A DNA stretch of 64,000 nt, taken from the NCBI GenBank assembly GCA_001244265.2, contig CDLV01000009.1, positions 620,001-684,000 on the forward strand, written 5' to 3'. The stretch comes from Microbotryum violaceum (taxonomy: Eukaryota). Each line of letters begins with the position of its first letter. Positions within the stretch are counted from its first letter, which is position 1. Shown here piece after piece: positions 21,734 through 34,680 of the stretch. Below the pieces are notes generated by a model. That model did no database searches and was not told the DNA's origin. It was given only the letters and a program-made list of their open reading frames with translations. A program made the position numbers and the translations under genes.

Positions 21734-24700
21734 TTACAGAGACACTAGGCGACCCTTGGACTCCTGGATAGAGGCTCGAAGCCCCTCGAACTCCGTTTCG
21801 GTGATCGGTTCCAAAAGATCCGACGAGAATCGACGACGGCGACAGAGCTTCCAGATCGAGTGAAAGAAGAGGACTCGTAGTTCGACAAGTCGACGTTCCG
21901 AGCGAGACACGACCGGGCATACAAAGTCCACAAAGACTGGGTGGGGGGTCGGGGACAGAGCAGACCAGAGGCGCCGGGCAAATGGGCAGCCGACCGCGAG
22001 GTGAACCAGGCACTCGGGTGCTTCCGAGAGGCACATCACACAGGAGGTAGATCGATTGTTGCGATGTGGGCTGGTTGGGGAGGCGACTTGGCTTCCCGGA
22101 TGGAGGGACCCCAGGGAGAGAAGGTGGCCGGTATCCTCGGCGTCCGAGTGAACCCGGCGAACCTTGCGCAAAGCCTTCCACCAAGCGTTCCAGCGTTGCT
22201 CAGGCAGATCGAATACCTTCTGGTGTCCCTTGGGGAAGATAGGGGGGAAGATGAAGACTTGGTGGCGTTTGGACGCGTTCACAAACGAAGACGGGGTCAT
22301 CACCTCGCCATCGGGCCCTCGAAAAAGCGTCGGGTTTACCGAGAGTTGTATCCCGTGGCCCGCTGGGAAATAGAGTACGTGCGTCGCCCATTGCTCGAAG
22401 TTCTGGCTCTTGGAGAGTTCCGGGGGATTGAGCGTGGTCACCAACGCCCAGGCTTCGAAGTATCGGACCCAACGAGCAGGAAGAAGTTTTGTCGTCTTTC
22501 TCACCGCATGGTCCCACTTTGGGGGAGGATGGCAAAAGTATGCCCACCGGATCCAAATCCAAGGCAACGATGCTGGTTGGGGGCCGGTCTGGACAAGGTG
22601 AAAGGGGTTGGTTCGTTTGGTGCCTGGAGGCGGATGCGGATGTCGAAGAGGTGGTGTGTGAAGCAGCCGTCCGGGGCCCGGAGCTGGAAGACCCACTTCG
22701 CGTGATCGATTGCTAGACGCCGAGGCAGATCAATCAAACCGAAGCCGCCGTGATCAAGAGGGGTGCAGAGGCGCGACCGGGAGACCTTCGGACGTCGCTG
22801 AGTACCATCCGAAGCTCGACCGTGAATGGCGAGCATGGCGGCCTCCTCGATCTCCTTGACAACGCTCTTGGGGGCGGGAAGAAATCGGCTGTAGTACAAG
22901 ATCTTTGTGTAGCAGTAGATATTGATGATCGAACACTTGGCTGCATATGGGAGATCGTACATCGGAATCGAGCGTATCCGAGCGATGGTCGAGGCCTTGA
23001 CATCTTCCCAGCCCGCATCCTCGGCGATCTCCACCCCGACCTGAATACCAAGGTAGCGAAACTGCGAATCGCTGAGACGCCAGGTCCCGAGATCTGGGGC
23101 GATCGACCGATCCCGAAAAGCTCCAAGGGGGTAGAGGAAAGATTTGACGTTGCTGAGCTTGCTGGCACTTGCCCGTTCGTAAAGCTCGATCGCCCGATTG
23201 AGGTGGTCGAGGTCCGAGAGGTTGTGGAGTGCGCAGCAAGCGTCGTCGGCAAAAAGGAGTTCGCGAACGTTTTGGAGGCCCGCAATATCGACGCCCTTGA
23301 CTCTCAATCGAATCTGACAGGCAAAACCTTCGATCGCCAGGACGAAGAGAAACGGAGCCAAAGGATCACCTTGCTGAACGCCCGACAGGATGTCGAAAGT
23401 GGCAGAGAGCCAACCGTTGAGGAAGATCGAGGCAGATTGGTTGGTGTAGGTCGCTCGGTACCATTGGCGGGCTTTGGGGCCGAGGCCAACGGCGCAGAGG
23501 ACTGCATCAAGGTACGGGTGGGAAAGACGATCGTAAGCCTTTTCAAAGTCCATCACCGCTAGCATGTCAGAGAGCCCGGAAGTCCAGGGTCCATGAGACA
23601 TTGGACCTCAGCGATGTTCGTGCCGATCCAACGATTCGGAACAAAGCCACGTTGGGTTGGGCCGATCAGGGACTCGAGCAAGGGAGCGAGGCGCTGGTTG
23701 TGGGCTTGCGAGATGATGCGCTCGTCCGCATTGATGAGCGATATGGGGCGTTTGTTCGAAAGCTGATCCCTCTCGCCGCGTTTGTGGATGAGATGGATGT
23801 GGGTGGTGTTGCGGGGAAGAGGTCCAGGCTGACGGGCCTCGGTGGGGATCGAGTTGATGACGTCTCGAAGAATCGGGCCAGTGGCCGGCCACGTAGCGCG
23901 ATAAAACTCAACCGGGAGGCCGTCAGGCCCTGGCGAAGAGTTCGACTTACACGCCGCTTGAGCCTTTGTCATCTCCTCCAACGGGTACGCTTCCTCGAGC
24001 TTGAGTGAGTCCGCGGGGGAGAGGCGAGTTGAAGCGAGGCCGTCGATGATCGCCTTCAGGGCCGCGTCATCGATGGGGCGGTCCTCATAGACCCGCTCGA
24101 AGTAGTCGCTGGCCGCTCCAAGCATCGAATCAGGGTCGGAATGAAAAACATCGTTGACCGTGAGCGAAGGGATCAGGTCGGATGCTCGCACTTTGCGCAG
24201 GCGGATGAAGATGGAAGAGGGACCCGCCAGAGATGGGTCGAGGCGGGACCGCAGGGCCGCGCCGTAGCGCGAGTGGTCAGCGAAAGTCCGGGCCAGAGCC
24301 TGCAGCTCGGGCAGCAGGCGGTCTTTGGTGGACGTCCAAGCTGCTGGTGGATCGTTGGGCGTCTGGAGGAGGGCTTTGTTGTAAAGGGTGCGGACAATGG
24401 AGGTGAGGTACTTGCAGGTCGCGTCGCCCTCGATCACGTGCAAACCCAGCTTGAATTTGCCCGGACCGATGTCGATTGCGCCCGGCACTTGGAACCGCGC
24501 CACCACCATCGAGTGCGTCGATTTGAGGACAGGAGCCCAAATTTTGTGATCATGGAAGAGGTCGACCCAATCAGGCGAGAGATAGATGCGGTCAAGGCGA
24601 CGGCACGTGCCGGGCGCTGAGCGATTCGTCATGGCTCGTCCTTTGGGATGATGGAGCCGATAGGCCTCGAAAAGATTGTTGGCCGTGGCAAGGTCGCGCA

Positions 24701-25240
24701 TCTCCTGACCCCCATAATTCGTTCCGTTTTGGTTCTCCGAATCGAGGGGCTGGGACTCAACACAATTCCAGTCCCCCCCGACTAGGAGCGCAGGCGGGAG
24801 GGTTCGTCACGTACAACTTGTCGGAGGGCGGTGCTGAGGTGTGAGAGGAAGCGTTTTTTGTCTGGCTTGTCGGAGGAAGGCGCGTATATTGATACAACCC
24901 GGACTTTTGAACCACCCACACAAAAGGTGGCGTCGGTGACTCGGTCCGGGAAAGAGAAAGAGGCACGAAGAGTGTTTGGAGGCGACTCGGGATCAAAAGT
25001 AATGACCACGGAGTCGCTCTTCCAAAGTATGGCAGTGTTGTTGAAAGGAGTGAAAAGAGCGGAGAGCTTTAAGTCTTGGCACTCCTGAGTCCACTGGGCC
25101 ACCCTTTCGGGGGAAGGTCGGCCAGTTTCGCTCAGGAGAAAGACGTCGGCGTTATGGGAGCGGAGATTGGAGAAAAGAGGCACGCTTACGGTCTTCATTG
25201 ATTGACTGCACGTTGGCAGCAACAAAAGACACGTTTGGGA
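21734..25240 (-). pseudogene. LINE ORF2 (APE endonuclease - reverse transcriptase - zinc finger)
   Basis: 'NVQS', 'LSET', 'SIYAP', 'GGDWNC', 'RLDRIY'; RT 'RPISLIN', 'DFEKAYD', 'GVQQGDPL', 'LLFADD', 'YLGI'; 'CVMC...HLAVGC'. Frameshifts near 24795, 23580 and 22600-22700. Confidence 0.9.
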
Positions 25241-25242
25241 TT

Positions 25243-26673
25243 TTAGTTGTGCTCATCATCTTGGTCCATAGCGTCTTCCACGTCCTTAGGAGGTGCTTCT
25301 TGGTCTTCGGCTTCTTCGTCGGCCTCGTCGTCGGTGTCGGCGTCATCGGGTCGGGCTTTGGGCGCGGCTGAGGGCAACGGCGTGGGCGAAGACGGCTCGG
25401 GGCTCGGCTCGGAGGCTTCGAGGGCAGGCGCAGTGGGAGGGGCTTCACGAGTGGCTGGCTTGGAGAGGGCGGCAATCGACTTGGATCGAGTTATGATCGG
25501 CTTTGGCGTGGCCGGAGGAGGGCTTGGGGATGGAGAGGTGGTCTCTGAGCTGGGGGACTCGGAGGATTTTTCAACGAGGGAGTAGGCAATTCCCTGATTG
25601 GAGGCAGGCTGGGGGCAGGAGGAGTGGCAGTTTTGCAAGGGAAATTGAAGGAGAACTCGGGGCGGGCATTCTTCGACAGAGAATCGGGCTGAGCTCTGTT
25701 GGACAGATCTTCAGTCTGGGCTGCCAGATCCTGTTCCACTCGACGTTTTTTGGTCGTGCGGTCGTGGGCGGAGGCCGGGGAGATCGACTTGGACACGGCG
25801 GCGGGGCGGCGGTGGTAATGGTGGAGGCTTGCGGGGCACGTGACGTGGGGGTCCCTGGGGGCTCGACGCATGACGGGCCGGGCAGTGCTGGGTGGCGTGC
25901 GAGGTGCTCGCGCAGGACTTGCACGCCGGGGCGACGGGGCAATCCTTACGGACGTGAGCCGCGGAACGGCAGAAGACGCAGTGGCGCATGCCACCGGTGA
26001 TCCTCAGTGGGATTCGCTCAGTGACACCGTCACGAGCAATAGAAAGTGAGGCAGGGGGCAAAACATCTACATCCTTAAGGGCAAGGATAAAGTCGTACAC
26101 CCCAGAGATGTGTTTCGTCTTTCCAATGTACTGGATGCGACGACGGAGGACCGTGCCATAGGCAGCGATCTGCTCATCGAATAGGCAGAGGCCCTCGGGG
26201 TCGGAGAAAAAGCCCGTAAGGGTGCATTGTACAACACCTCCTCTAGTAGAGCTGTACAGCTTCTCGACTTTGCACAGAGTCTTGCCAACAGTGAGGCCGT
26301 TGGCCACCAGGGTGTCGAGATCGGCGGCCTTGGGAAAGCGGAGGCCGCGCTGACCCTTGATGACGCATGGCATTGCGCCGGTAAGGCCAGGGTAGTATTT
26401 GTCAAGCGCGAGGAGGACTTGCTCGACCGAGGTTGAGGGTGGGGTGTTGATGATGACACAATTCTCGATGTTGTGCATCAGTGGATGGGCGGCGACGGCA
26501 GTCGAGGCGTTGGCGGTGGCGTTTCCGTGCTTCGCAGCGGAGCGGGCGCCGACCGCGGCGGAGTATGATTTGGTGGTGGTGGCGGGGGCTTGGCCGGGGG
26601 GATCGGGAGGGTCAGGGCGAAGAGGTGGTATAGCAGCATGGCTGGCGTTGTTGGTGTTGTTGTTGTTGTCCAT
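25243..26673 (-). pseudogene. LINE ORF1 (gag-like)
   Basis: 'CVFCRSAAHVRKDC' and 'CKSCASTSHATQHC' knuckles; the Pro/acidic tail is split across frames. Confidence 0.85.
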
Positions 26674-27125
26674 CCAATAGGAGTTTCCTTTTTCAAGTCG
26701 GCCAAATCACGGTGATTTTGAAATGAAAAAATTAAGTCACCCCGAAGAGGGGGAGAGGGAAAGGAGAAAGATTTGGACTAAGAGCGTTGGCGTGCATCAA
26801 CAACGGCAATTTTAAGTAAAAGGCGTAAGATTGATTCTGTGGTCGATACACCGCTCAGTGCTCACTCAGTCCGCTTGCAAAACAGGCAAACAAGCAAGTA
26901 AACAAAAATCAAGAAGAGTCTTGTTCAAGTACTAATCCGAAGGAAATTTCGCCGACCAAGTCAGCCCGAGAAACTGTGTGTACTACATGCGCGAGCGAAA
27001 AGAATGCGAAACACATCTCGAAGGACCCCCAACTGATAGCAACGTGGATAACGGCACAGATATGAAAGGCGGAAGGAAAACCGGATACACGGGGTTACAA
27101 ACGCGTGGCAGAACTATACGAGACT

Positions 27126-30100
27126 TCAATCGAGTGAGATCGGTTCGTTGTCCGGATCAAGGCTGGAAGCCACGGCCTCACTACCGCCATCATGACGTGT
27201 TTCGGGTGCCCATCCGTGGAACGGGATCCCAAGCGACAGCAAATAATCCGCAGGCGGTTCAACCAAAGCTCGGCGCCAGAACACCTCTTCGCCCGACGAG
27301 TCGCCGTCCGAGTCACTACCTTGGCGACGCATCCTAAACCGCGGGAACCGCACCTGTGACGACGGCAAGTGCGTCACAATGCGTTCCTCCAAAACCCTAG
27401 TCGTATGCAAAGGTTTTGGTGGAGCACTACTTGTTGGCCGCGACGGCAAGAGCGAGGCAAGGGAAGCGATGACCGCGCGTGCGTGACGCAGTTGCGGCCG
27501 AGGAGTGACCGATGGATCGCAGACCAACTCCGACTTGATACGGATAGTAAAGTGGTCCATAGACACGACGTTAGTCATTCCCGATAGCGATAGAGAGGGC
27601 AGTCCCGACGTCTCGCTCTCCACGTCCATCTGCGAGAACGTCTCGGTTTCCCAAGCCGGCCACACCAACGCTTTCCACGTCGTGTCGCTCAATTCGACGA
27701 CTTGCCCCGAGGCTTCGGACGGGGGGGATGGCGTGGAAACGAAGATAGATGCGTTCGGAGAGTGGACATCACCGTCGTCTTCGCCATCGCTACGAGAGAT
27801 GCGCGCGCGGTCGACAGCGTCCGAGTCGGCCGAAGGGGATCTCTCGAGCCGATGCCGGACATGGGCGTTGCCTGCAAGGTCCGAACAGAAGACGTCGGAC
27901 CGGAAAAAGACGAGGCCGCCATCGGGTGCACCATGCCGCCTTCTGCGCTTGCGAGCAGGTGCTCTGCCTCTTGCCTCCGTCGAATGCGCGCCGCCCTCTG
28001 TCGAGTGTAGGATCGAATCCTCACCGTGGCCGCTCGACGACTCGTCATCGGATCGGGCAAAGTAATCGCTTTCGTCATCCTCGAACTGACGTTTAGCAAA
28101 CATCGGCCTATAAGGTGCCACGGATGGGTTGCGACGCGTAATGTCCTCTGTATCTGTGCCCGTGGAGTCGTCGTCGCCACCCAAAGGGGCCACAGAGATG
28201 GTTCCGTCATGCAGCGTATAGTCCGGCACGCCCCTCGCATCCAACAGCTCCTTTTGCAAGGCTTTACGCAGCGCGTCCGAGGGCTGGCTATTGGTAAGAC
28301 TGTTCGTCGCCGTGCCGCTGATGCTCGCCCGGCTGACACCCGACCGCGTCGATCGACCCGACTCGTCGCGCAAGCTGTTACTGTCGTTCTTGGACCGGCC
28401 CGAGCCCGAACCACCGGTTGGAATTGAGGTTGCACCGGTCGAGTTTGAGTTCTTCGAGTTGGTATTCGAATTCTTGATCGAAGACAGGGTAGGGGGCACC
28501 GAGCCGCTCTGCATGTCGTCCTCGGTGGCAGCAACGCGCCGCAGGCGACTGTCGGACGAGGTAGTGTCGGCTTCCCGCGGCAGGTAGATATTAGAGTCGG
28601 AGGCCGGGGCGCGCAGGCTTGTCGACACGGCGAGGTTGTTGGTCTGGCGGCGTTGCTCGACGGCTTCGACTGCGCCATCGTCCATCGTCGCATCGTTGGC
28701 GTCAACGCCCTCCGCCCTGGCAATGGCCGATTCGACCTCGTTGCGCTTGCGTGCCTCTCCGCGCCACCGCACCTTGCTCCCATCCTTGCTCACCTCAACG
28801 CGGTGACTGCGGCGCTTGAGCGACCAGCGAAGGAAATCGATACTCAGGTTGAGTCGATGGACTCCTGCCATGGTGAGGATCAGGTTCAGATAGACCCAAC
28901 CGCCACCTCGCTTGGTCTCGTCCGAGTCGAGCATCGTTCGAAGATACCGTGTGTTGCTCGACGAAGTCGGCGGAAGCGGCGACGGCTCGGATAGGAGCGG
29001 GTTGAGCAACGGGTCATCCACCGGCGAGCTCGACCAAGCGCCAGCAAACAGCCGCTCTACGAGTTCGACCACAATCTTGGCCAAAGGCTCGGCAGTCGTG
29101 AGTGATGTCGTCATCTCGTCTGAGCCGGAATCATCTGAGCCTGCAGTACCGACGTTGTGCGGTGGCGGAGACTCCTCCGACTCTTCCGCCGAGCTCTCGC
29201 CCTTGACTTCCTCTGCAGCGTTGGCGGCAGCGATCGCGGAATGCGACTGTCGCCGTGAGATGGACGGGAAAGGGATTTTTGCGACTGGTCTGTTGCGTGC
29301 TTCGCGTCGCTGGGGGTTCGAAATACGCATCCCCGTTCCGGTTCCGCTCGCAGATTGAGGCTCGATACCAGAGAACGAAGGCGCTGCGAGCCAATTCTGC
29401 TCGCCGTCGTACGGGTGGACGACGTCCTGAGCTTCGGCGGATGGTTCCCCTTGCGGCGCTTCGACCATGGTGCGTTCGTGCGAGCCTTCGCGGACCTTAG
29501 CGGGGAGGGACGGAGGACCAGCGATGACAGATTCCGACTTGACGCGTTCGACGTTCTCAGTCGACAAGGGCGGTGGACCGCTCTCCCTGGAAAGACGGTC
29601 AGCGCTCCCGCTGCCACTCCCGCTACCACTGCCCTCCTCGGGCCCGCCCGCGTTCAATCGCTTGCTCAGCTCTTCTTTTTCGGACGAGCGCAGGGACCGA
29701 AGCGTCACACCGATCGAAGAAGTCGTGTCGGTTCCCAATGTTGCGGATTCTTGATCGGCTCGAGGAGCGCGAGAAGGCTTCGCGCCGCTCGTCATTGGCG
29801 GTGGGCCCTGGAACCCTTCGCCATCTTCGGATTGAATTTGCTGCACATAGTGTGTGAGGAACGACTCGATTTCTTGCCGTCTCGAACTTTGTAGAATATA
29901 GAATGAATTAGAGGTCCTGTCAGCCACGTTTTTCGGATTACTCATTGTGAAAGCAGTCTGCGTGACACTACTTACGGAGGAAAACCGTCAAAGAATCGAA
30001 CTTCGAATAAGCGGTCCTGTTCCATACTTGCAGGTACGCTCGATGCCTCGAATCGTCGCAATCGACCCTTCAGTTTCCGATCTGTGCAGCCGGACCGCAA

Positions 30101-30867
30101 TCGAAGTCAGTCGCAATGGAGGTCAACTCTCAAATTTTCACTCGGACGCACTCTCGATGGTCAAGTCATCGACCTGTACACGAAGGAGGATAGTGTGAGC
30201 GGGGGTATCGGACACTGGTCGACACCATCAGTAGTCCGTACACGTACAATGTCCCGGAAGCTTCCTTCGGACAGTGCCGAGTTGGCTCCGGCATGGGATA
30301 ATCGTTCCTGCTCCTTTCCTATCGCGCTCATGGCTTGCTTGCCGCTATATGCCGAGCCGGGGGTCAAATGGTTCACTTCTTGAAGTCTCATAGTACCGTC
30401 GTGGCCATGATCGGGAGTCACTCGAGGTGGAAGCCCAGGGGAGGCCAGATTGACGAGTACGGACCCGAGGTCGGAACGAGTTGAGGGGCGTGAGTGGAGC
30501 TCGGCATCATCATCGGCAAAGTCCTCGTCATCCGAAAGAGGAATCCCAAGCGCGCCTACACGTAGGAGGTGTGATTTCGTGATGGATACCAGCGACTCGC
30601 GAGAGGCCGAAGATGCTGAGGCCGGCGATCCCGGGCTCGTCTGCTGGCACGGGTGGACGACGGAGGCGAGTGAGAATGCGGTGGACAGATCGGCCGTCAG
30701 CATCGGCTACATGGAATGCACACGCGGTTGGTTCCTCTTCTTGCTGAACTCACATCTAATGGTATAGCGGGGTCATCGTAGACGTCTATGGCTTGTTGCT
30801 TGCCTCCACCGTTGAGCGCTTGGCCACCCCCGACGACGACTCGGCCGCCACCGTTCGTCTCGCTCAT
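27126..30867 (-). CDS. frq: FREQUENCY (FRQ) circadian clock protein homologue, multi-exon
   Basis: Spliced N-terminal coiled coil 'SFRDI/VDDLTIE/NRKLKGRLRRFE...DRLFEVRFFDGFP/PSRRQEIESFLTHY'; then 'IVVELVERLFAG', 'GWVYLNLILTMAGVHRLN...VSKDGSKVRWRG', 'YRPMF', 'GGLVFFRSDVFCSDLAG', 'SGMTNVVSMDHF'. These are collinear with the conserved blocks of Neurospora FRQ as I recall them. Start codon tentative. Confidence 0.88.
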
Positions 30868-31582
30868 TGCGGGCCCTCCACCGAGTCGATGCACGCAAGC
30901 CTGGTCCAGAGTATGTGCAATGTATCGCCCCGTGAAGGACGACGAGGTGATTGCCCCTGTCGTGGGAGGCTAGCGGTCCTCGTTCCGCTCGCAATGGCCT
31001 CGAGTCGATGTCAGGACGAGGCTTCCAACGATCTCGCGATCTAGGCCCTACGAATTGATGGATTTTAGGGTTGAGACCTCCCCAATTTTCAACAGGAAAC
31101 CTCCAGCTCCAGAGAGCTTCGGATAATTTGAGCAAAATAAATTATATCGCTACCTTCACTCAGTCCACCAATACCCGTCGTAGAGCACATTTTGAGGTGG
31201 TACGACATTCGCCGGTGGTAAAAAGCAGGCTCAGCTAATCGCCACCGACAGGCATTGAGGGATAGTAGTGGTCGCGTGGCTCGCCCAAGTTTCCAGATAT
31301 ACACGGAGTAGTACGGACGTTCTATAAAGAGACGCGTGTCGCTTCGAGATCAGAGCGCCGCTGGAGCGAATTACCCGTAGCTCCACCAATTTCCCCCTCG
31401 GCCCGGGCTGCCTTTGCTTTTTGACACTTCGTCATCTGCACTAGAGATTAGAGATTCGGCGAGCAGTGTCGAATCTTCCTCGGCTCGGTAAGACTCGGTA
31501 AACCCGACGTTTCGCGCTCCACAACTCACTTTCACCACCCTCGTCTGACCTTCCGAGGTCTCCATCCGACTTCGACAAGGCC

Positions 31583-32107
31583 ATGACATTGCGATCCTCA
31601 GCCGTCTCTCTCGCCCGAGGTTTAGCTTCGTCCTCATCGTCATCGTCCTCGCTCCCGTTTCGGTGGACCTCGATACAAAATGTCACCTTCCAGCCACGCC
31701 ACTTCAGCACATCTCACGCCCCACCCAACTCCTTCTCAAGGCCGTCCCCCCCCCTTCTTCCAAGAGCGGACCAAAAGGAATTTGAGGACCTACAACGTCG
31801 AGTCAACGCTCCCGCATCTCAACAAGCCCAACAGGACCTGGAAGCTCAAGCTGAACTCGCGAAAACGGTCACGGGCACAGAGAAGGATTTGACGATGCAT
31901 CCTGATTATCGGAAGACACCGGAACCGACATTCCAAGGCGATACCAACCCCGAGACGGGCGAGGTTGGGGGGCCTAAGCGAGAGCCTTTGGTGCATGGTC
32001 AGTAGATGCAATGTGCCCGAGTGTTCCTACATTCCACCATTAACACGTTCACCTCTCTTCGTACCTCAGGCGATTGGTCGTATGGAGGCCGTGCGACCGA
32101 CTTTTGA
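31583..32107 (+). CDS. SDH8: Succinate dehydrogenase assembly factor 4 (Sdh8/SDHAF4)
   Basis: Mitochondrial-presequence-like N-terminus; C-terminal 'NPETGEVGGPKREPLVHG/DWSYGGRATDF*'. Confidence 0.9.
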
Positions 32108-32397
32108 AGAACGCTTGTGGCGCTCCTCATCGTCTCGTTCCCTATATCAACCCCATCGCATCTTGCAAAAGGGGTGTTATTGTCGTGTTATTAAAATGAA
32201 GTATTAAACAAATCATCCCATGCCAACCATGCAGGTGCCCTGCTAGTGGTTGTCGCATAGTTCGCCACTCGGGACGCGTGAAATCCTCGCGTCAAAACCG
32301 TGCTTGCAAAACGAGAGACGATGATATAACAAATGCAACAAGTGGACACAAAACGAGAGTATGCAAAGGAGAACAAACGTCATCTCCCCCGCCCTCT

Positions 32398-34680
32398 TCA
32401 CCTCCCACACAACTCTCTACTCCACTTCCTCCTCAAAGGAGGCCGCCTTTCCTCCCTCCCCCCGAACAAAACCCCAATGAACTGCCTCGGTCCCACATCA
32501 TCCTCCTGATCGGATTGTTCTTCACCACTCTCATCTTGAATCTCCACTCCATTCCGATCCAACTTGATCGGGAAAGCTCTTCTCGTTGCCCTTCCTGTAT
32601 TGCTCGCCTGTGTACCTCTCGTCAGGGGTGAGCGTTGCGAGGGCATTCTCCACCTCGTGAGCAAGGAAGGGTTCATCGGTGCGGGTGCGGGTCCAGGCGT
32701 TATGGCCGCGATCTCCGTGGCTGTTCGGGGTGGGTTCTGCTCTTGTGCGAGCGTCGACGTTGTGGGAACGAACTGCCATTCGGGTCGCGCCCTTCGCGCT
32801 TCTTCCCACGAAGGGAATTCCTGAGAAGCTGAAGCGGGCATCAAAGTCGGAGCATTTCCGCTCGATGATCCAGGCTGCATTTGCTGTTGCACGTATCGAT
32901 CTTGTTGATCTCGGATGCGAGACATGGAATCGAGCGTCATCTGCGCGTGTCGAAGCCTCGAGCGAGCGAGCTCTAATCGGCTATCGATATTATCGGAACT
33001 TGAGCTCGCCAATGTCCTCGTATCACCGGTGGGCGCAAGACTGGATACGGAAGTCGAGGAGGTAGAAGGAGACGTATTGTAATGGTGGTAGAAGCGAGCT
33101 CGATGCTCCTCCGGCGAGACTTCGGCGCCGACGTTGAATGCGTCTGATGGTGAAGGCGACGCTTCGTCGTGAGCAGCAGCACGAACGAAATCAGGGAATT
33201 CCTGCAATAAAATGTCGATCCTCAGCGATGCAACTCGAAGCTGGACGATGGACCTTTGCAATGACAACATTGCCGATGGCGCCATGATGCTACTAGAACG
33301 CAAGCTGGTGGTCGTGGTTGGGGCACCATCCGAGAGTCGGCGTGCTGGTGTCCATCGGTCGGTCCGTGTTGTCGGTAACTCGGGTCCACCGATATAACCA
33401 TGCTGATCGGCGGACGAGATGCTTTGAGCCACTTGCTCGAGTCTGGTTCGTGTGCAACAATAGCTCGAGATGATCAGCGATGCCCGTGCGCAAATACCTT
33501 GAGTTTCTGAGACCTACCGCTCGGCAAAAGCTACCGCTGTTCTGAGTGCTTGCTGTGCACCTCTGAGGACCCTCTGCGTGTCACTGAGGCGAGAGGTATC
33601 CATTGTCGATGTCCCCGTTTCGTTGTGGCCTGCGAGCCTCGCACTGAATGGGTCGGAAGTATTGGCAGGCCGACCGATCGTGGTCAAAGGCTCGACCGCC
33701 TCCCTCGCGCTGTGAACGGACGAACGAAACGCCGAGAACTCTCGCCAGGGCGTGACCGTGGACATCAAGAGCTCTGACGAGTCGTAATGCGTTGACGGCG
33801 TTGCGGCCGTATTGCCGAGGTTGAAGAGCAGCTCGTCTCCCGTCGAAGTGGTAGGCATCGGTAATGCCGGCGTAGGCGCTCGTCGGAGCAGGGTGACGGA
33901 GGACGGAATTGCATTGGGCTCCTCATTGGTGAACACGGTATTTCCAGATATACTCGGATAGATCGCGGGACCGTCGGAAGATCGGCCGCTTGGGTGCATA
34001 GAGGAGGACCGAGCAACTCGGGGGTCGATGGTTTCATCAGCGTCCGTTGAACTCGCAATTTGCGATGACAGGGAACGCAAAGGTCGAGCATCGAGGTGAA
34101 GGGGCCGTAGCGAAGGAGTCTCGAGCGTTCTCATACGAGGGCCTGACCACCGAGATGAAGACGGCTCCGTGCCCGGTGTATAGGTGGGTTCGAGAGCGAA
34201 CGCATGGGACGTCTCGGAGATACGTGAAACGGCCCCGGTGGTTAGACTCATCTCGGGCAGACGGGGCAAACTGCCACTCTCGGCGAGGTTGGCGTTTCCA
34301 TTATCGTCGAATAGTGCGGATGCAAATGCAGATACGGTGGGCATTGCTGGTCGAGGACGAGGTGCGGGCCTCGGTGAGGCCGGAGATCGCAGTTGTGGCT
34401 CCGGCTGCAGCAGGCTCGCTTCGGAGTTGGCTGACGGCGGCGGTCGGAGATCGACGGCTGGCACTGGAGAGGCCTGGGATGGTTAGCATCCACCGAGGCG
34501 CAGGCGAGATTTTTCCTCGGGATTGAAGCTCACCATCAACAGGTATTGGACGGCCCCTGTAGATAGAGAGACGAAGTCATTGGCGGTGCGAGTCAAGGGC
34601 GGGATCATCGTGGGATCAGCCTCCGAGCCAGCGTGGGGGGCTGCGACCGCAAGACTAGCCATTGTCTCGAGGGTAGGCAT
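32398..34680 (-). CDS. Hypothetical Ser/Pro/Thr-rich low-complexity protein, ~3 exons
   Basis: Consecutive long minus-strand ORFs (34483-34680, 33514-34464, 32398-33432) separated by intron-sized gaps; no domain recognised. Confidence 0.6.

What the first reader, a model, noticed from the sequence alone, without database searches (positions are those of the whole stretch)
27126..30867. A complete-looking frq clock gene in an apparent basidiomycete, partly hidden by micro-exons
Seen: splicing three short introns at ~29.9-30.25 kb rebuilds 'SFRDIVDDLTIENRKLKGRLRRFEASSVPASMEQDRLFEVRFFDGFPPSRRQEIESFLTHY'. The 939-aa ORF then carries 'VVELVERLFAG', 'TRYLRTM', 'GWVYLNL...VRWRG', 'YRPMF', 'VFCSDLAG' and 'VVSMDHF' in long Ser/Thr-rich disordered linkers. 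Known: these correspond in order to the Neurospora FRQ coiled coil (YRSVIDDLTVEN..LFEIKVHGLP), the CK1-binding FCD1/FCD2 elements, the GWVYLNLL block and the FRH-binding region (FCTDLSG); frq is mainly characterised in filamentous ascomycetes. Inference: this fungus may have an FRQ-based oscillator not yet characterised in its lineage.
Basis: partly seen in the sequence, partly recalled or inferred. Interest (0 to 1): 0.88.

Follow-up and report, generated by a model that had tools for sequence, protein, structure and literature searches.

The report
FRQ clock-gene homologue in anther smut
The window carries an intact, five-exon homologue of the Neurospora clock gene frequency in the basidiomycete Microbotryum lychnidis-dioicae; the gene is already in public databases but its function has never been studied, so it offers a testable lead to a possible FRQ-type clock outside the ascomycetes.

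Summary
On the minus strand, 30867-27126, lies a five-exon gene whose spliced product (1131 aa) is identical to the deposited MVLG_03865 of Microbotryum lychnidis-dioicae. The protein scores 84 bits against Pfam FRQ (cut-off 26.6). A profile comparison with ascomycete FRQs gives 100% probability. The coiled coil, the CK1-binding FCD2 helix and core, and the FRH-critical DHF triplet are conserved. FCD1 is only a plausible amphipathic helix. About 78% of the protein is predicted disordered.

The family is not new. Every named basidiomycete hit is a Microbotryomycete, mostly with two old paralogues, and some are already named 'frequency clock protein'. No paper found here studies them. Clock function and vertical versus horizontal origin remain open. 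Verdict: new member of a known kind, moderate interest.

The parts
30754..30867 (-). Exon 1 (ATG at 30867-30865; codons 1-38)
   Evidence: a contig of the relative covers 30754-30979, so the 5' UTR is at least about 112 nt
30641..30753 (-). Intron 1, 113 nt, GTGAGT..CAG; it holds an ATG at 30703 in frame with exon 2
   Evidence: Skipped in contigs of X19 and X20; the frame can be seen
30248..30640 (-). Exon 2 (codons 39-169), ending ...SFRDI
30174..30247 (-). Intron 2, 74 nt, GTACGT..CAG
   Evidence: (joint with cut +2)
30152..30173 (-). Exon 3, a 22-nt micro-exon (VDDLTIE + 1 nt) in the middle of the coiled coil
30082..30151 (-). Intron 3, 70 nt, GTGCGT..CAG
29976..30081 (-). Exon 4, 106 nt (NRKLKGRL...FFDGFPP)
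29887..29975 (-). Intron 4, 89 nt, GTAAGT..AAG
27126..29886 (-). Exon 5, 2761 nt including the stop codon at 27128-27126; contigs of the relative end near 27042
30044..30268 (-). Coiled-coil helix, aa 163-189, spread over exons 2-4; a/d core F166 V170 L173 N177 L180 L184 F187
   Evidence: AF2 helix with pLDDT 82-92; heptad register; L180 and L184 invariant in 48 of 48 sequences; coordinates
29865..30028 (-). Block aligned to the N. crassa NLS region (aa 195-219, SMEQDRLFEVRFFDGFPPSRRQEIE)
   Evidence: the N. crassa NLS string is printed in PMC7493669
29034..29093 (-). Amphipathic helix aa 477-496 holding VVELVERLFAG: the candidate FCD1 equivalent
   Evidence: AF2 helix, pLDDT up to 95; hydrophobic moment at the 98.8th percentile; only a weak alternative hhalign match, E 0.07
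28752..28964 (-). Ordered core aa 520-590 (YLRTM...GWVYLNL...KVRWRG); the FCD2 equivalent LILTMAGV, aa 547-554, lies at 28860-28883
   Evidence: Asco-only HMM domain of 64 bits; pLDDT 88-95; Y544 L545 N546 H555 R585 W586 G588 invariant in 48 of 48
28098..28112 (-). YRPMF motif (aa 804-808), aligned to Y-K/T-P-L-F of ascomycete FRQs
27870..27920 (-). GGLVFFRSDVFCSDLAG block (aa 868-884); function not mapped in the sources read
   Evidence: F878 and D881 invariant in 48 of 48
27531..27584 (-). SGMTNVVSMDHFTIRIKS (aa 980-997), with DHF at 27549-27557: the equivalent of the N. crassa 6B2/FFD site for FRH
   Evidence: D989 and F991 invariant in 48 of 48; strand 991-1001 with pLDDT about 82; 6B2 defined in PMC12796302

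Best explanation
This is the frequency (frq) orthologue of the anther-smut basidiomycete Microbotryum lychnidis-dioicae (deposited as hypothetical protein MVLG_03865). It is an intact five-exon gene for an 1131-aa, mostly disordered, Ser/Thr-rich protein. Shown here: the homology to FRQ, the gene model, splicing and transcription in a close relative, and the conservation of the short ordered islands that carry FRQ's known interactions in Neurospora. Inferred from Neurospora: the protein dimerises through the N-terminal coiled coil. It anchors casein kinase 1 through the helix in the YLNL core (the FCD2 equivalent), probably helped by the amphipathic helix 477-496 (an FCD1-like element). It binds the Mtr4-type helicase FRH through the C-terminal DHF strand, and CK1 slowly phosphorylates its long disordered linkers. 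The most likely role is as the negative, phosphorylation-timed element of a feedback loop on the White Collar complex, that is, a FRQ-type oscillator or at least a light- and time-gated repressor. The window's gene belongs to paralogue clade A of a family found throughout the class Microbotryomycetes.
For: Identity and gene model: 100% match to MVLG_03865. The spliced CDS equals the deposited protein. Four GT..AG introns are skipped in contigs of X19 and X20 from a ~93%-alike relative.

Homology: Pfam FRQ 84.2 bits, E 8.3e-24, cut-off 26.6. An HMM built only from 16 non-Microbotryomycetes FRQs gives 164 bits in three collinear significant blocks. hhalign gives probability 100, E 1.2e-41, over 658 aligned columns.

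Conserved functional residues: L180 and L184 (spacing as for N. crassa L165 and L169), Y544-L545-N546, H555, R585-W586, G588, F878, D881, D989 and F991 are invariant in 48 of 48 sequences. DHF is the triplet whose AAA substitution abolishes FRH binding in N. crassa.

Architecture: 878 of 1131 residues have pLDDT below 50, and the confident islands sit exactly on the conserved blocks. N. crassa FRQ is described as 85% disordered. S+T is 229 of 1131, against 219 of 999 in Xylaria FRQ.

FCD1-like helix: pLDDT up to 95; hydrophobic moment 0.571 (98.8th percentile), against 0.500 for the Xylaria FCD1.

Maintained by selection: 83-93% identity among three Microbotryum species, and about 30% but motif-conserving across the class.
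Against: No functional datum exists. Rhythmic or light-induced expression, CK1, FRH or WCC binding, and even the presence of wc-1, wc-2, frh and ck-1a in this genome could not be tested, because no genome was held.

FCD1 is not supported statistically. A mini-profile of the ascomycete FCD1 gave no significant hit in 35 Microbotryomycetes proteins (best 0.2 bits; 21 of 35 gave no hit). The main hhalign path pairs FCD1 with a different, disordered block.

The residue equivalent to Q494 of FCD2 is G553 here.

The basic N-terminal / acidic C-terminal charge split seen in the Sordariomycete FRQs (pI 9.5/4.8 and 9.1/4.7) is absent: pI 4.9/5.7.

The 1.5 kb upstream holds no GATCGA on either strand.

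A conserved frq does not guarantee a clock: the V. dahliae homologue directs no circadian programme, going by the title of PMC7493669 and the passages seen.

The transcript evidence comes from one study of a relative, not from this strain. Contigs of X18 from near-identical DNA or RNA are unspliced.
Confidence: 0.55

Rival explanations
1. A true FRQ homologue that does not run a circadian oscillator. It would keep the CK1/FRH scaffold but serve light, developmental or infection-related regulation without self-sustained rhythm, as reported for some ascomycetes.
For: V. dahliae keeps frq with conserved domains, yet no circadian programme was found (PMC7493669 title and passages). Here the charge asymmetry of the Sordariomycete FRQs is lost, FCD1 is uncertain, and no GATCGA-type site lies upstream. 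Clade-specific conserved blocks with no ascomycete counterpart (aa 61-78, 263-288, 373-406, 1050-1065, 1096-1107) suggest lineage-specific partners.
Against: The modules needed for the timing mechanism (coiled coil, FCD2 core, DHF, long S/T-rich disordered linkers) are the very ones conserved over the whole class. Nothing here separates 'clock' from 'non-clock' use of them.
Confidence: 0.3
2. Origin by ancient horizontal transfer from an ascomycete into the ancestor of Microbotryomycetes, rather than vertical descent from the common ancestor of Ascomycota and Basidiomycota with losses elsewhere. This rival concerns origin, not function, and is compatible with either reading above.
For: All named basidiomycete hits in three word-indexed searches and in the named part of the exhaustive search are Microbotryomycetes. 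AU tests do not reject the basidiomycete clade as sister to the Sordariomycete clade (p 0.364) or to the Dothideomycete-containing clade (p 0.486).
Against: In the ML tree the 24 basidiomycete rows form one clade (SH-aLRT 100). It joins the other 42 rows at their base, beside the Orbiliomycete, and is not nested in a class. The A/B duplication predates the split of Sporidiobolales, Phenoliferia and the JL strains. Identity to ascomycete FRQs is only 19-23%. The gene has host-like introns and GC content. Only 150 of 591 representative hits were listed and 14 of those named, so other basidiomycete or early-diverging lineages may be hidden.
Confidence: 0.25
3. A decaying or mis-modelled relic: an open frame with chance FRQ-like motifs, or a pseudogene.
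For: The protein is deposited as 'hypothetical protein'. The first three-quarters of the coiled coil depends on correct splicing of a 22-nt exon. X18 contigs are unspliced.
Against: The frame is intact across five exons with canonical splice sites. Spliced contigs at depth 14 and 171 exist in a relative. Orthologues in three Microbotryum species are 83-93% identical. Profile statistics are far beyond chance.
Confidence: 0.02

Closest known systems
Neurospora crassa FREQUENCY (FRQ), the negative element of the FRQ-WCC oscillator
   Same: Same Pfam family. The collinear order is the same: coiled coil, NLS-region block, an amphipathic helix, the YLNL/FCD2 core, Y-x-P-x-F, FC[ST]DL[AS]G, and SG..DHF. 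The two coiled-coil leucines and the D-x-F of the FRH site are invariant. It is similarly long, about 20% Ser/Thr and mostly disordered.
   Different: Only 19-23% identical to the ascomycete FRQs in hand. FCD1 is not recoverable by profile. Gly replaces the Gln of FCD2 (Q494). There is no basic N-terminal half. Five conserved blocks are specific to Microbotryomycetes. The intron layout differs, with a micro-exon inside the coiled coil. The N. crassa sequence itself was not in hand, so coordinates were mapped through Xylaria FRQ P0035.
FRQ homologues of other ascomycetes with tested function (Botrytis cinerea, Pyronema confluens, Verticillium dahliae)
   Same: Conservation confined to short islands in a divergent disordered protein. 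As with P. confluens, some mapped domains are well kept and others only partly.
   Different: Those are all Pezizomycotina. B. cinerea has a frq-dependent clock, while V. dahliae shows none. Which case applies here is unknown.
'Frequency clock protein' entries of Rhodotorula toruloides, R. graminis and R. taiwanensis (automatic names)
   Same: Same class, same family. R. toruloides P0017/P0025 falls in the same clade A as the window's gene.
   Different: The red yeasts and Phenoliferia also carry a clade-B paralogue. No clade-B protein of Microbotryum was seen, but that search missed 4 of its own 7 query sequences.
Animal PERIOD with CK1 delta/epsilon (analogue, not homologue)
   Same: A disordered clock repressor that anchors CK1 through two amphipathic helices and is slowly hyperphosphorylated. 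PMC8892514 draws this parallel for FRQ.
   Different: No sequence relationship. It is cited only for the mechanism.

Membership tests
FRQ (Pfam PF09421, Frequency clock protein) | Score above the curated gathering threshold of the family HMM | tested here: met
   84.2 bits, E 8.3e-24, against a cut-off of 26.6 for the full protein. Exon 5 alone gives 46 bits. Six of 6 other Microbotryomycetes proteins tested score 87-99 bits.
FRQ (Pfam PF09421, Frequency clock protein) | Collinear full-length relationship to ascomycete FRQs, not a single shared motif | tested here: met
   hhalign probability 100, E 1.2e-41, P0001 161-1077 against Xylaria FRQ 144-896. The asco-only HMM gives three significant domains in order.
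FRQ (Pfam PF09421, Frequency clock protein) | N-terminal coiled coil with the two leucines needed for FRQ-FRQ interaction (N. crassa L165, L169) | tested here: met
   AF2 helix 163-189, pLDDT 82-92. The heptad core is F166 V170 L173 N177 L180 L184 F187. L180 and L184 are invariant in 48 of 48. Dimerisation itself was not shown.
FRQ (Pfam PF09421, Frequency clock protein) | FCD1, an amphipathic helix for CK1a (N. crassa aa 319-326) | tested here: inconclusive
   The mini-profile of the ascomycete FCD1 gave no significant hit in 35 proteins. hhalign's main path pairs FCD1 with the disordered block at about 356-370. VVELVERLFAG appears only as an alternative (E 0.07, probability 0.8). VVELVERLFAG nevertheless lies in a confident helix (pLDDT 95) with a high hydrophobic moment.
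FRQ (Pfam PF09421, Frequency clock protein) | FCD2, an amphipathic helix for CK1a (N. crassa aa 488-495, L488, Q494) | tested here: met
   Mapped through Xylaria LLGNLAQL (494-501) to P0001 L547-V554, LILTMAGV. The flanking Y544 L545 N546 and H555 are invariant and A552 is at least 90% conserved. The helix is 545-551 with pLDDT about 90. The Gln is replaced by Gly553. The mapping rests on residue identity and spacing, not on the N. crassa sequence.
FRQ (Pfam PF09421, Frequency clock protein) | FFD/6B2 site for FRH: DHF (N. crassa 774-776) | tested here: met
   D989-H990-F991. D and F are invariant in 48 of 48 and H is present in at least 90% of the 12 sequences in A1. The adjacent strand 991-1001 has pLDDT about 82. 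FRH binding itself was not tested.
FRQ (Pfam PF09421, Frequency clock protein) | Largely intrinsically disordered, Ser/Thr-rich substrate for multisite phosphorylation | tested here: met
   878 of 1131 residues have pLDDT below 50. There are 229 Ser+Thr (20%). Phosphorylation was not tested.
FRQ (Pfam PF09421, Frequency clock protein) | Basic N-terminal part and acidic C-terminal part (a feature recalled from the literature; values for ascomycete FRQs were computed here) | tested here: not met
   Split at YLNL, P0001 has pI 4.94 and 5.73. Xylaria has 9.46 and 4.80; Podospora has 9.09 and 4.70. The feature is also weak in Melanomma (6.42 and 4.76), so it does not define the whole family.
FRQ-WCC oscillator (functional system) | WC-1/WC-2, FRH, CK1a and FWD-1 present in the same genome | not testable with these tools
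   No genome is held for this window. Papers say WC proteins are widespread in basidiomycetes (passage; abstract start of bioRxiv 2024.02.13.580115), but this was not checked for Microbotryum.
FRQ-WCC oscillator (functional system) | Light-induced and rhythmic frq expression; progressive phosphorylation; loss of rhythm in a null mutant | not testable with these tools
   The only evidence is presence of spliced contigs in two runs of a relative. No listed holder of the stretch is on record as RNA.
FRQ-WCC oscillator (functional system) | WCC-type binding sites (GATCGA-like; motif recalled, not taken from a call) in the promoter | tested here: not met
   There is no GATCGA or TCGATC in 30868-32400, against 1.00 and 0.64 per kb in the window. 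The only related feature is a pair of GATCG 8 nt apart at 31029 and 31037. The test is weak because the basidiomycete WCC site is unknown.

The most novel reading that the evidence does not exclude
FRQ is older than the Ascomycota-Basidiomycota split. The Microbotryomycetes, including this plant-castrating anther smut and the tractable red yeast Rhodotorula toruloides, run a working FRQ-CK1-FRH-WCC oscillator built on two ancient FRQ paralogues. That would be the first molecular circadian clock described in a basidiomycete, and it would use a variant CK1-docking arrangement (an acidic FCD1-like helix, Gly in place of the FCD2 Gln, no basic N-terminal half).
Probability: 0.3. Interest if true: 0.8.

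Novelty: new member of a known kind. Interest (0 to 1): 0.5.

Why it matters
The usual account places frq only in Pezizomycotina: a 2024 paper still says frq genes have been observed only in Ascomycota. No basidiomycete clock has a known molecular basis, as far as I recall. This locus shows that a whole basidiomycete class keeps FRQ with exactly the islands that carry dimerisation, CK1 docking and FRH binding, while everything between them has diverged. That gives three things. First, a natural mutagenesis series showing which FRQ features are indispensable. Second, a testable candidate for timekeeping in a pathogen whose spores are carried by flower visitors, and in an industrial yeast with genetic tools. 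Third, a constraint on when FRQ arose. It is not a discovery of a new kind of system. The gene is already deposited and its relatives are auto-named, so the value lies in pointing experimenters at it and in the corrected motif map.

Tried and rejected
1. Whole-genome search for further copies and for clock partners: no genome is held for this window.

2. RNA evidence in this strain: no RNA holder is listed. X4 holds the whole stretch unspliced in one 18.6-kb piece and is most likely DNA. X18 ('RNA?', low depth) is unspliced.

3. Homodimer prediction for residues 150-245 in two copies: no answer (score 0.05, mark 0.32; the alignment was not used). This is no evidence either way.

4. Solved structures: the Xylaria FRQ has no relative in the PDB at E 0.01 or better.

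5. FCD1 mini-profile: no significant hit.

6. Promoter scan for GATCGA-type sites: none found, so uninformative.

7. First tree run with the mixture model on 681 columns did not finish. It was replaced by LG+G4 on 343 columns.

8. AU tests meant to exclude transfer from a derived ascomycete class did not reject it.

9. Clade-B profile search for a second Microbotryum copy: inconclusive, because 4 of the 7 query sequences were not recovered.

10. Earlier notes of this scan: none for this genome.

11. Literature. The searches frq + Pucciniomycotina (2 papers, unrelated by title), frq + Microbotryum (5 held, 3 listed, unrelated by title), frq + Rhodotorula + clock (0) and 'frequency clock protein' (16, none on a basidiomycete by title) found no study of a basidiomycete FRQ. 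The first loose search and the white-collar search returned taxonomy papers. One search returned nothing. Subscription journals are not covered. Supplementary tables (for example Table S1 and Figs S1-S3 of PMC9508176, which may list the basidiomycete FRQs used there) could not be seen.

12. The pseudogene or chance-ORF reading was rejected.


Full report
**What is there.** The window has 53-60% G+C. On the minus strand a stop-to-stop frame of 953 aa covers 27126-29987. Its translation alone already passes Pfam's FRQ model (46 bits, cut-off 26.6). A word-indexed search of that product found 35 proteins with E of 0.001 or better among 7988 scored candidates, and all 35 carry PF09421. The best is a 100%-identical, 1131-aa 'hypothetical protein MVLG_03865' of Microbotryum lychnidis-dioicae p1A1 Lamole.

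**Gene model.** Reading the minus strand and joining exons 30867-30754, 30640-30248, 30173-30152, 30081-29976 and 29886-27126 gives a 3396-nt CDS. Its product is identical to MVLG_03865. The four introns (113, 74, 70 and 89 nt) have GT..AG ends.

Of 24 public runs listed for the stretch, none is on record as RNA. Four were laid.
- X19 and X20 belong to one study, are labelled 'RNA?' and are 90-95% alike, so they come from a relative. Their contigs (depth 14 and 171) skip exactly these four stretches. That is direct evidence for transcription and for the junctions, including the 22-nt micro-exon, in a sister species.
- X4 holds the stretch unspliced in one long piece and is probably DNA.
- X18 holds seven contigs, at least 99% alike and at depth of about 3-4, that run unspliced through intron 4 and through intron 2 plus the micro-exon. 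This could be DNA or pre-mRNA and is not informative.

The '939-aa ORF' figure is slightly off, and a fourth intron near the start was not mentioned.

**Is it FRQ?** Yes.
- The full protein scores 84.2 bits (E 8.3e-24) against PF09421, and six other Microbotryomycetes proteins score 87-99 bits.
- An HMM built only from 16 non-Microbotryomycetes FRQs scores it at 164 bits in three significant, collinear domains: aa 151-243, 536-633 and 705-1076. Ten of the 16 are named ascomycetes. Six are unnamed and were taken to be ascomycete from the tree.
- A profile-profile comparison of 32 clade-A proteins with those 16 gives probability 100, E 1.2e-41, over 658 columns, P0001 161-1077 against Xylaria FRQ 144-896.

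**Map of the functional elements.** From passages of papers:
- FCD1 is aa 319-326 and FCD2 is aa 488-495 of N. crassa FRQ. Both are amphipathic helices, with mutants V320I, L488V and Q494N (PMC6761100).
- 6B2 is DHF 774-776; its AAA substitution abolishes FRH binding (PMC12796302).
- L165 and L169 matter for FRQ-FRQ interaction (PMC4592989).
- The NLS region is printed in PMC7493669.

I did not have the N. crassa sequence. I mapped these through the Xylaria FRQ P0035, using residue identities and spacing: L and Q six apart at 494 and 500, VV at 311-312, DHF at 775-777. The results are as follows.
- The coiled coil is helix 163-189 with a/d core F166 V170 L173 N177 L180 L184 F187. L180 and L184 are invariant in 48 of 48 aligned FRQs.
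- The block that follows aligns with the N. crassa NLS region but keeps only 'SRRQE' of the basic patch.
It sits in an ordered core, aa 520-600, with pLDDT 88-95. The Gln is replaced by Gly.
- The FRH determinant corresponds to D989-H990-F991 in 'VVSMDHF'; D and F are invariant in 48 of 48.
- FCSDLAG (877-884) is strongly conserved, but it lies about 105 residues upstream of DHF, and no source I read assigns it a function.

**FCD1.** This element is unresolved. A mini-profile of the very conserved ascomycete FCD1 found nothing significant in 35 Microbotryomycetes proteins. Twenty-one gave no hit, the best score was 0.2 bits, and in 8 the best (insignificant) hit fell on the [LI]VVE[LM]xERLF block.

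hhalign's main path pairs FCD1 with a different block ('LLRRPxDIF' in red yeasts, 'DVVHPYDGE' here, at about aa 356-370). It offers VVELVERLFAG only as an alternative (E 0.07, probability 0.8).

It lies in a confident helix, 477-496 (pLDDT up to 95), with a helical hydrophobic moment of 0.571 (98.8th percentile of the protein). The Xylaria FCD1 scores 0.500. The other block contains proline, has a low moment here and is predicted disordered.

**Overall architecture.** 878 of 1131 residues have pLDDT below 50, and the mean pLDDT is 47. Ser+Thr make up 20%. This matches the description of FRQ as about 85% disordered.

Two differences from the ascomycete proteins stand out.
- The basic N-terminal / acidic C-terminal split of the Sordariomycete FRQs is absent (pI 4.9 and 5.7, against 9.5 and 4.8).
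- Five blocks are conserved only within Microbotryomycetes: aa 61-78, 263-288, 373-406, 1050-1065 and 1096-1107.

**Distribution and origin.** An exhaustive profile search of 1.84 billion representatives found 591 clusters at E of 0.001 or better, 429 of them at 1e-30 or better. Only the best 150 are listed.

I asked for names for 20 of them, and 14 carry one. Six are Microbotryomycetes and eight are ascomycetes.

All named basidiomycete hits in every search are Microbotryomycetes: Microbotryum, Rhodotorula, Rhodosporidiobolus, Sporobolomyces, Phenoliferia, Meredithblackwellia and unnamed 'Microbotryomycetes sp.' strains. Several are already auto-named 'frequency clock protein'.

A tree of 66 rows on 343 columns (LG+G4, quick search, SH-aLRT only) puts the 24 basidiomycete rows in one clade (100). 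That clade is split into clade A (17 rows, support 98, including the window's gene) and clade B (7 rows, support 98). R. toruloides, Rhodosporidiobolus and Phenoliferia have both paralogues. The other 42 rows form the opposite side (100), with the Orbiliomycete and a Lecanoromycete at its base.

The tree used 33 of the 133 unnamed representatives, every fourth one. The rest, and the 441 unlisted hits, were left out.

AU tests do not reject the basidiomycete clade as sister to the Sordariomycete clade (p 0.364) or to the Dothideomycete-containing clade (p 0.486). The duplication is therefore old and the clade is not nested in a sampled class, but vertical descent and ancient transfer cannot be told apart here.

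A clade-B profile found Microbotryum only through its clade-A genes. It also missed 4 of its own 7 queries, so a second Microbotryum copy is not excluded.

**Surroundings.** About 1.5 kb separates the start codon from the next upstream frame (32398-33513, no Pfam hit). That stretch holds no GATCGA-type site and only one pair of GATCG. Immediately 3' of the gene lies a retroelement on the same strand (RVT_1, 53 bits). Further out are ordinary genes.

[quoted passage not shown] Its main text names no such species, and its supplements were closed. PMC11105155 (passages seen) still says frq has been observed only in Ascomycota. The main text of the Microbotryum genome paper mentions no clock, circadian term or MVLG_03865. 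Searches for frq with Pucciniomycotina, Microbotryum or Rhodotorula, and for 'frequency clock protein', found no study of a basidiomycete FRQ.

**Verdict.** The gene is a new, unstudied member of a known family that public databases already record.

Noticed in passing
window 21734-26706 (-): A retroelement lies directly 3' of the frq gene on the same strand. Frames at 22501-23607 and 23559-24806 match reverse transcriptase RVT_1 (53 and 21 bits). The frame at 25711-26706 has no Pfam hit but shows two Cys-His knuckle-like motifs and Pro-rich tails in its translation. It starts about 420 nt beyond the frq stop codon.
   Followed up: partly
window 30641-30753 (-), intron 1: Intron 1 holds an ATG (30703) that is in frame with exon 2, and if the intron is retained the exon-1 frame ends in a stop inside it. 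Retention could therefore switch between a long and a shorter N-terminus, which recalls the splice-dependent long and short FRQ forms of Neurospora (recalled). Only the spliced form was seen in the relative's contigs.
   Followed up: no
P0002 (Microbotryum saponariae deposited protein), residues about 170-195: The deposited M. saponariae model reads through the equivalent of intron 2. It inserts about 24 residues between SFRDIV and DDLTIEN and so breaks the coiled coil, and it has a repeat at the N-terminus. It is probably an annotation error, given the junctions.
   Followed up: no
P0001 aa 61-78, 263-288, 373-406, 1050-1065, 1096-1107 (exons 2 and 5): Five blocks are conserved across clade-A Microbotryomycetes FRQs and have no counterpart in the ascomycete proteins (for example LGALGIPLSDDED, TSSIGVTLRSLRSSEKE, LAAPSFSGIEP..GTGTGMRIS, HLPSSQVRFPRF, SLGIPFHGWAPE). 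Their function is unknown, and they are candidates for lineage-specific partners.
   Followed up: partly
window 30877-30892 and 30996-31012 (-); 31029-31041: A 10-nt direct repeat, CATCGACTCG, occurs twice in the 5' UTR and promoter-proximal region. A GATCG-N3-GATCG pair lies about 165 nt upstream of the ATG. Neither was tested for significance beyond.
   Followed up: partly
   Followed up: partly
Phenoliferia, Rhodotorula and Rhodosporidiobolus proteins P0053, P0056, P0107, P0125, P0174, P0180, P0187: A second, old FRQ paralogue (clade B) exists in several Microbotryomycetes. It keeps the coiled coil, the YLNL core, FCSDL and D-x-F, but replaces H of DHF in the consensus.
   Followed up: partly
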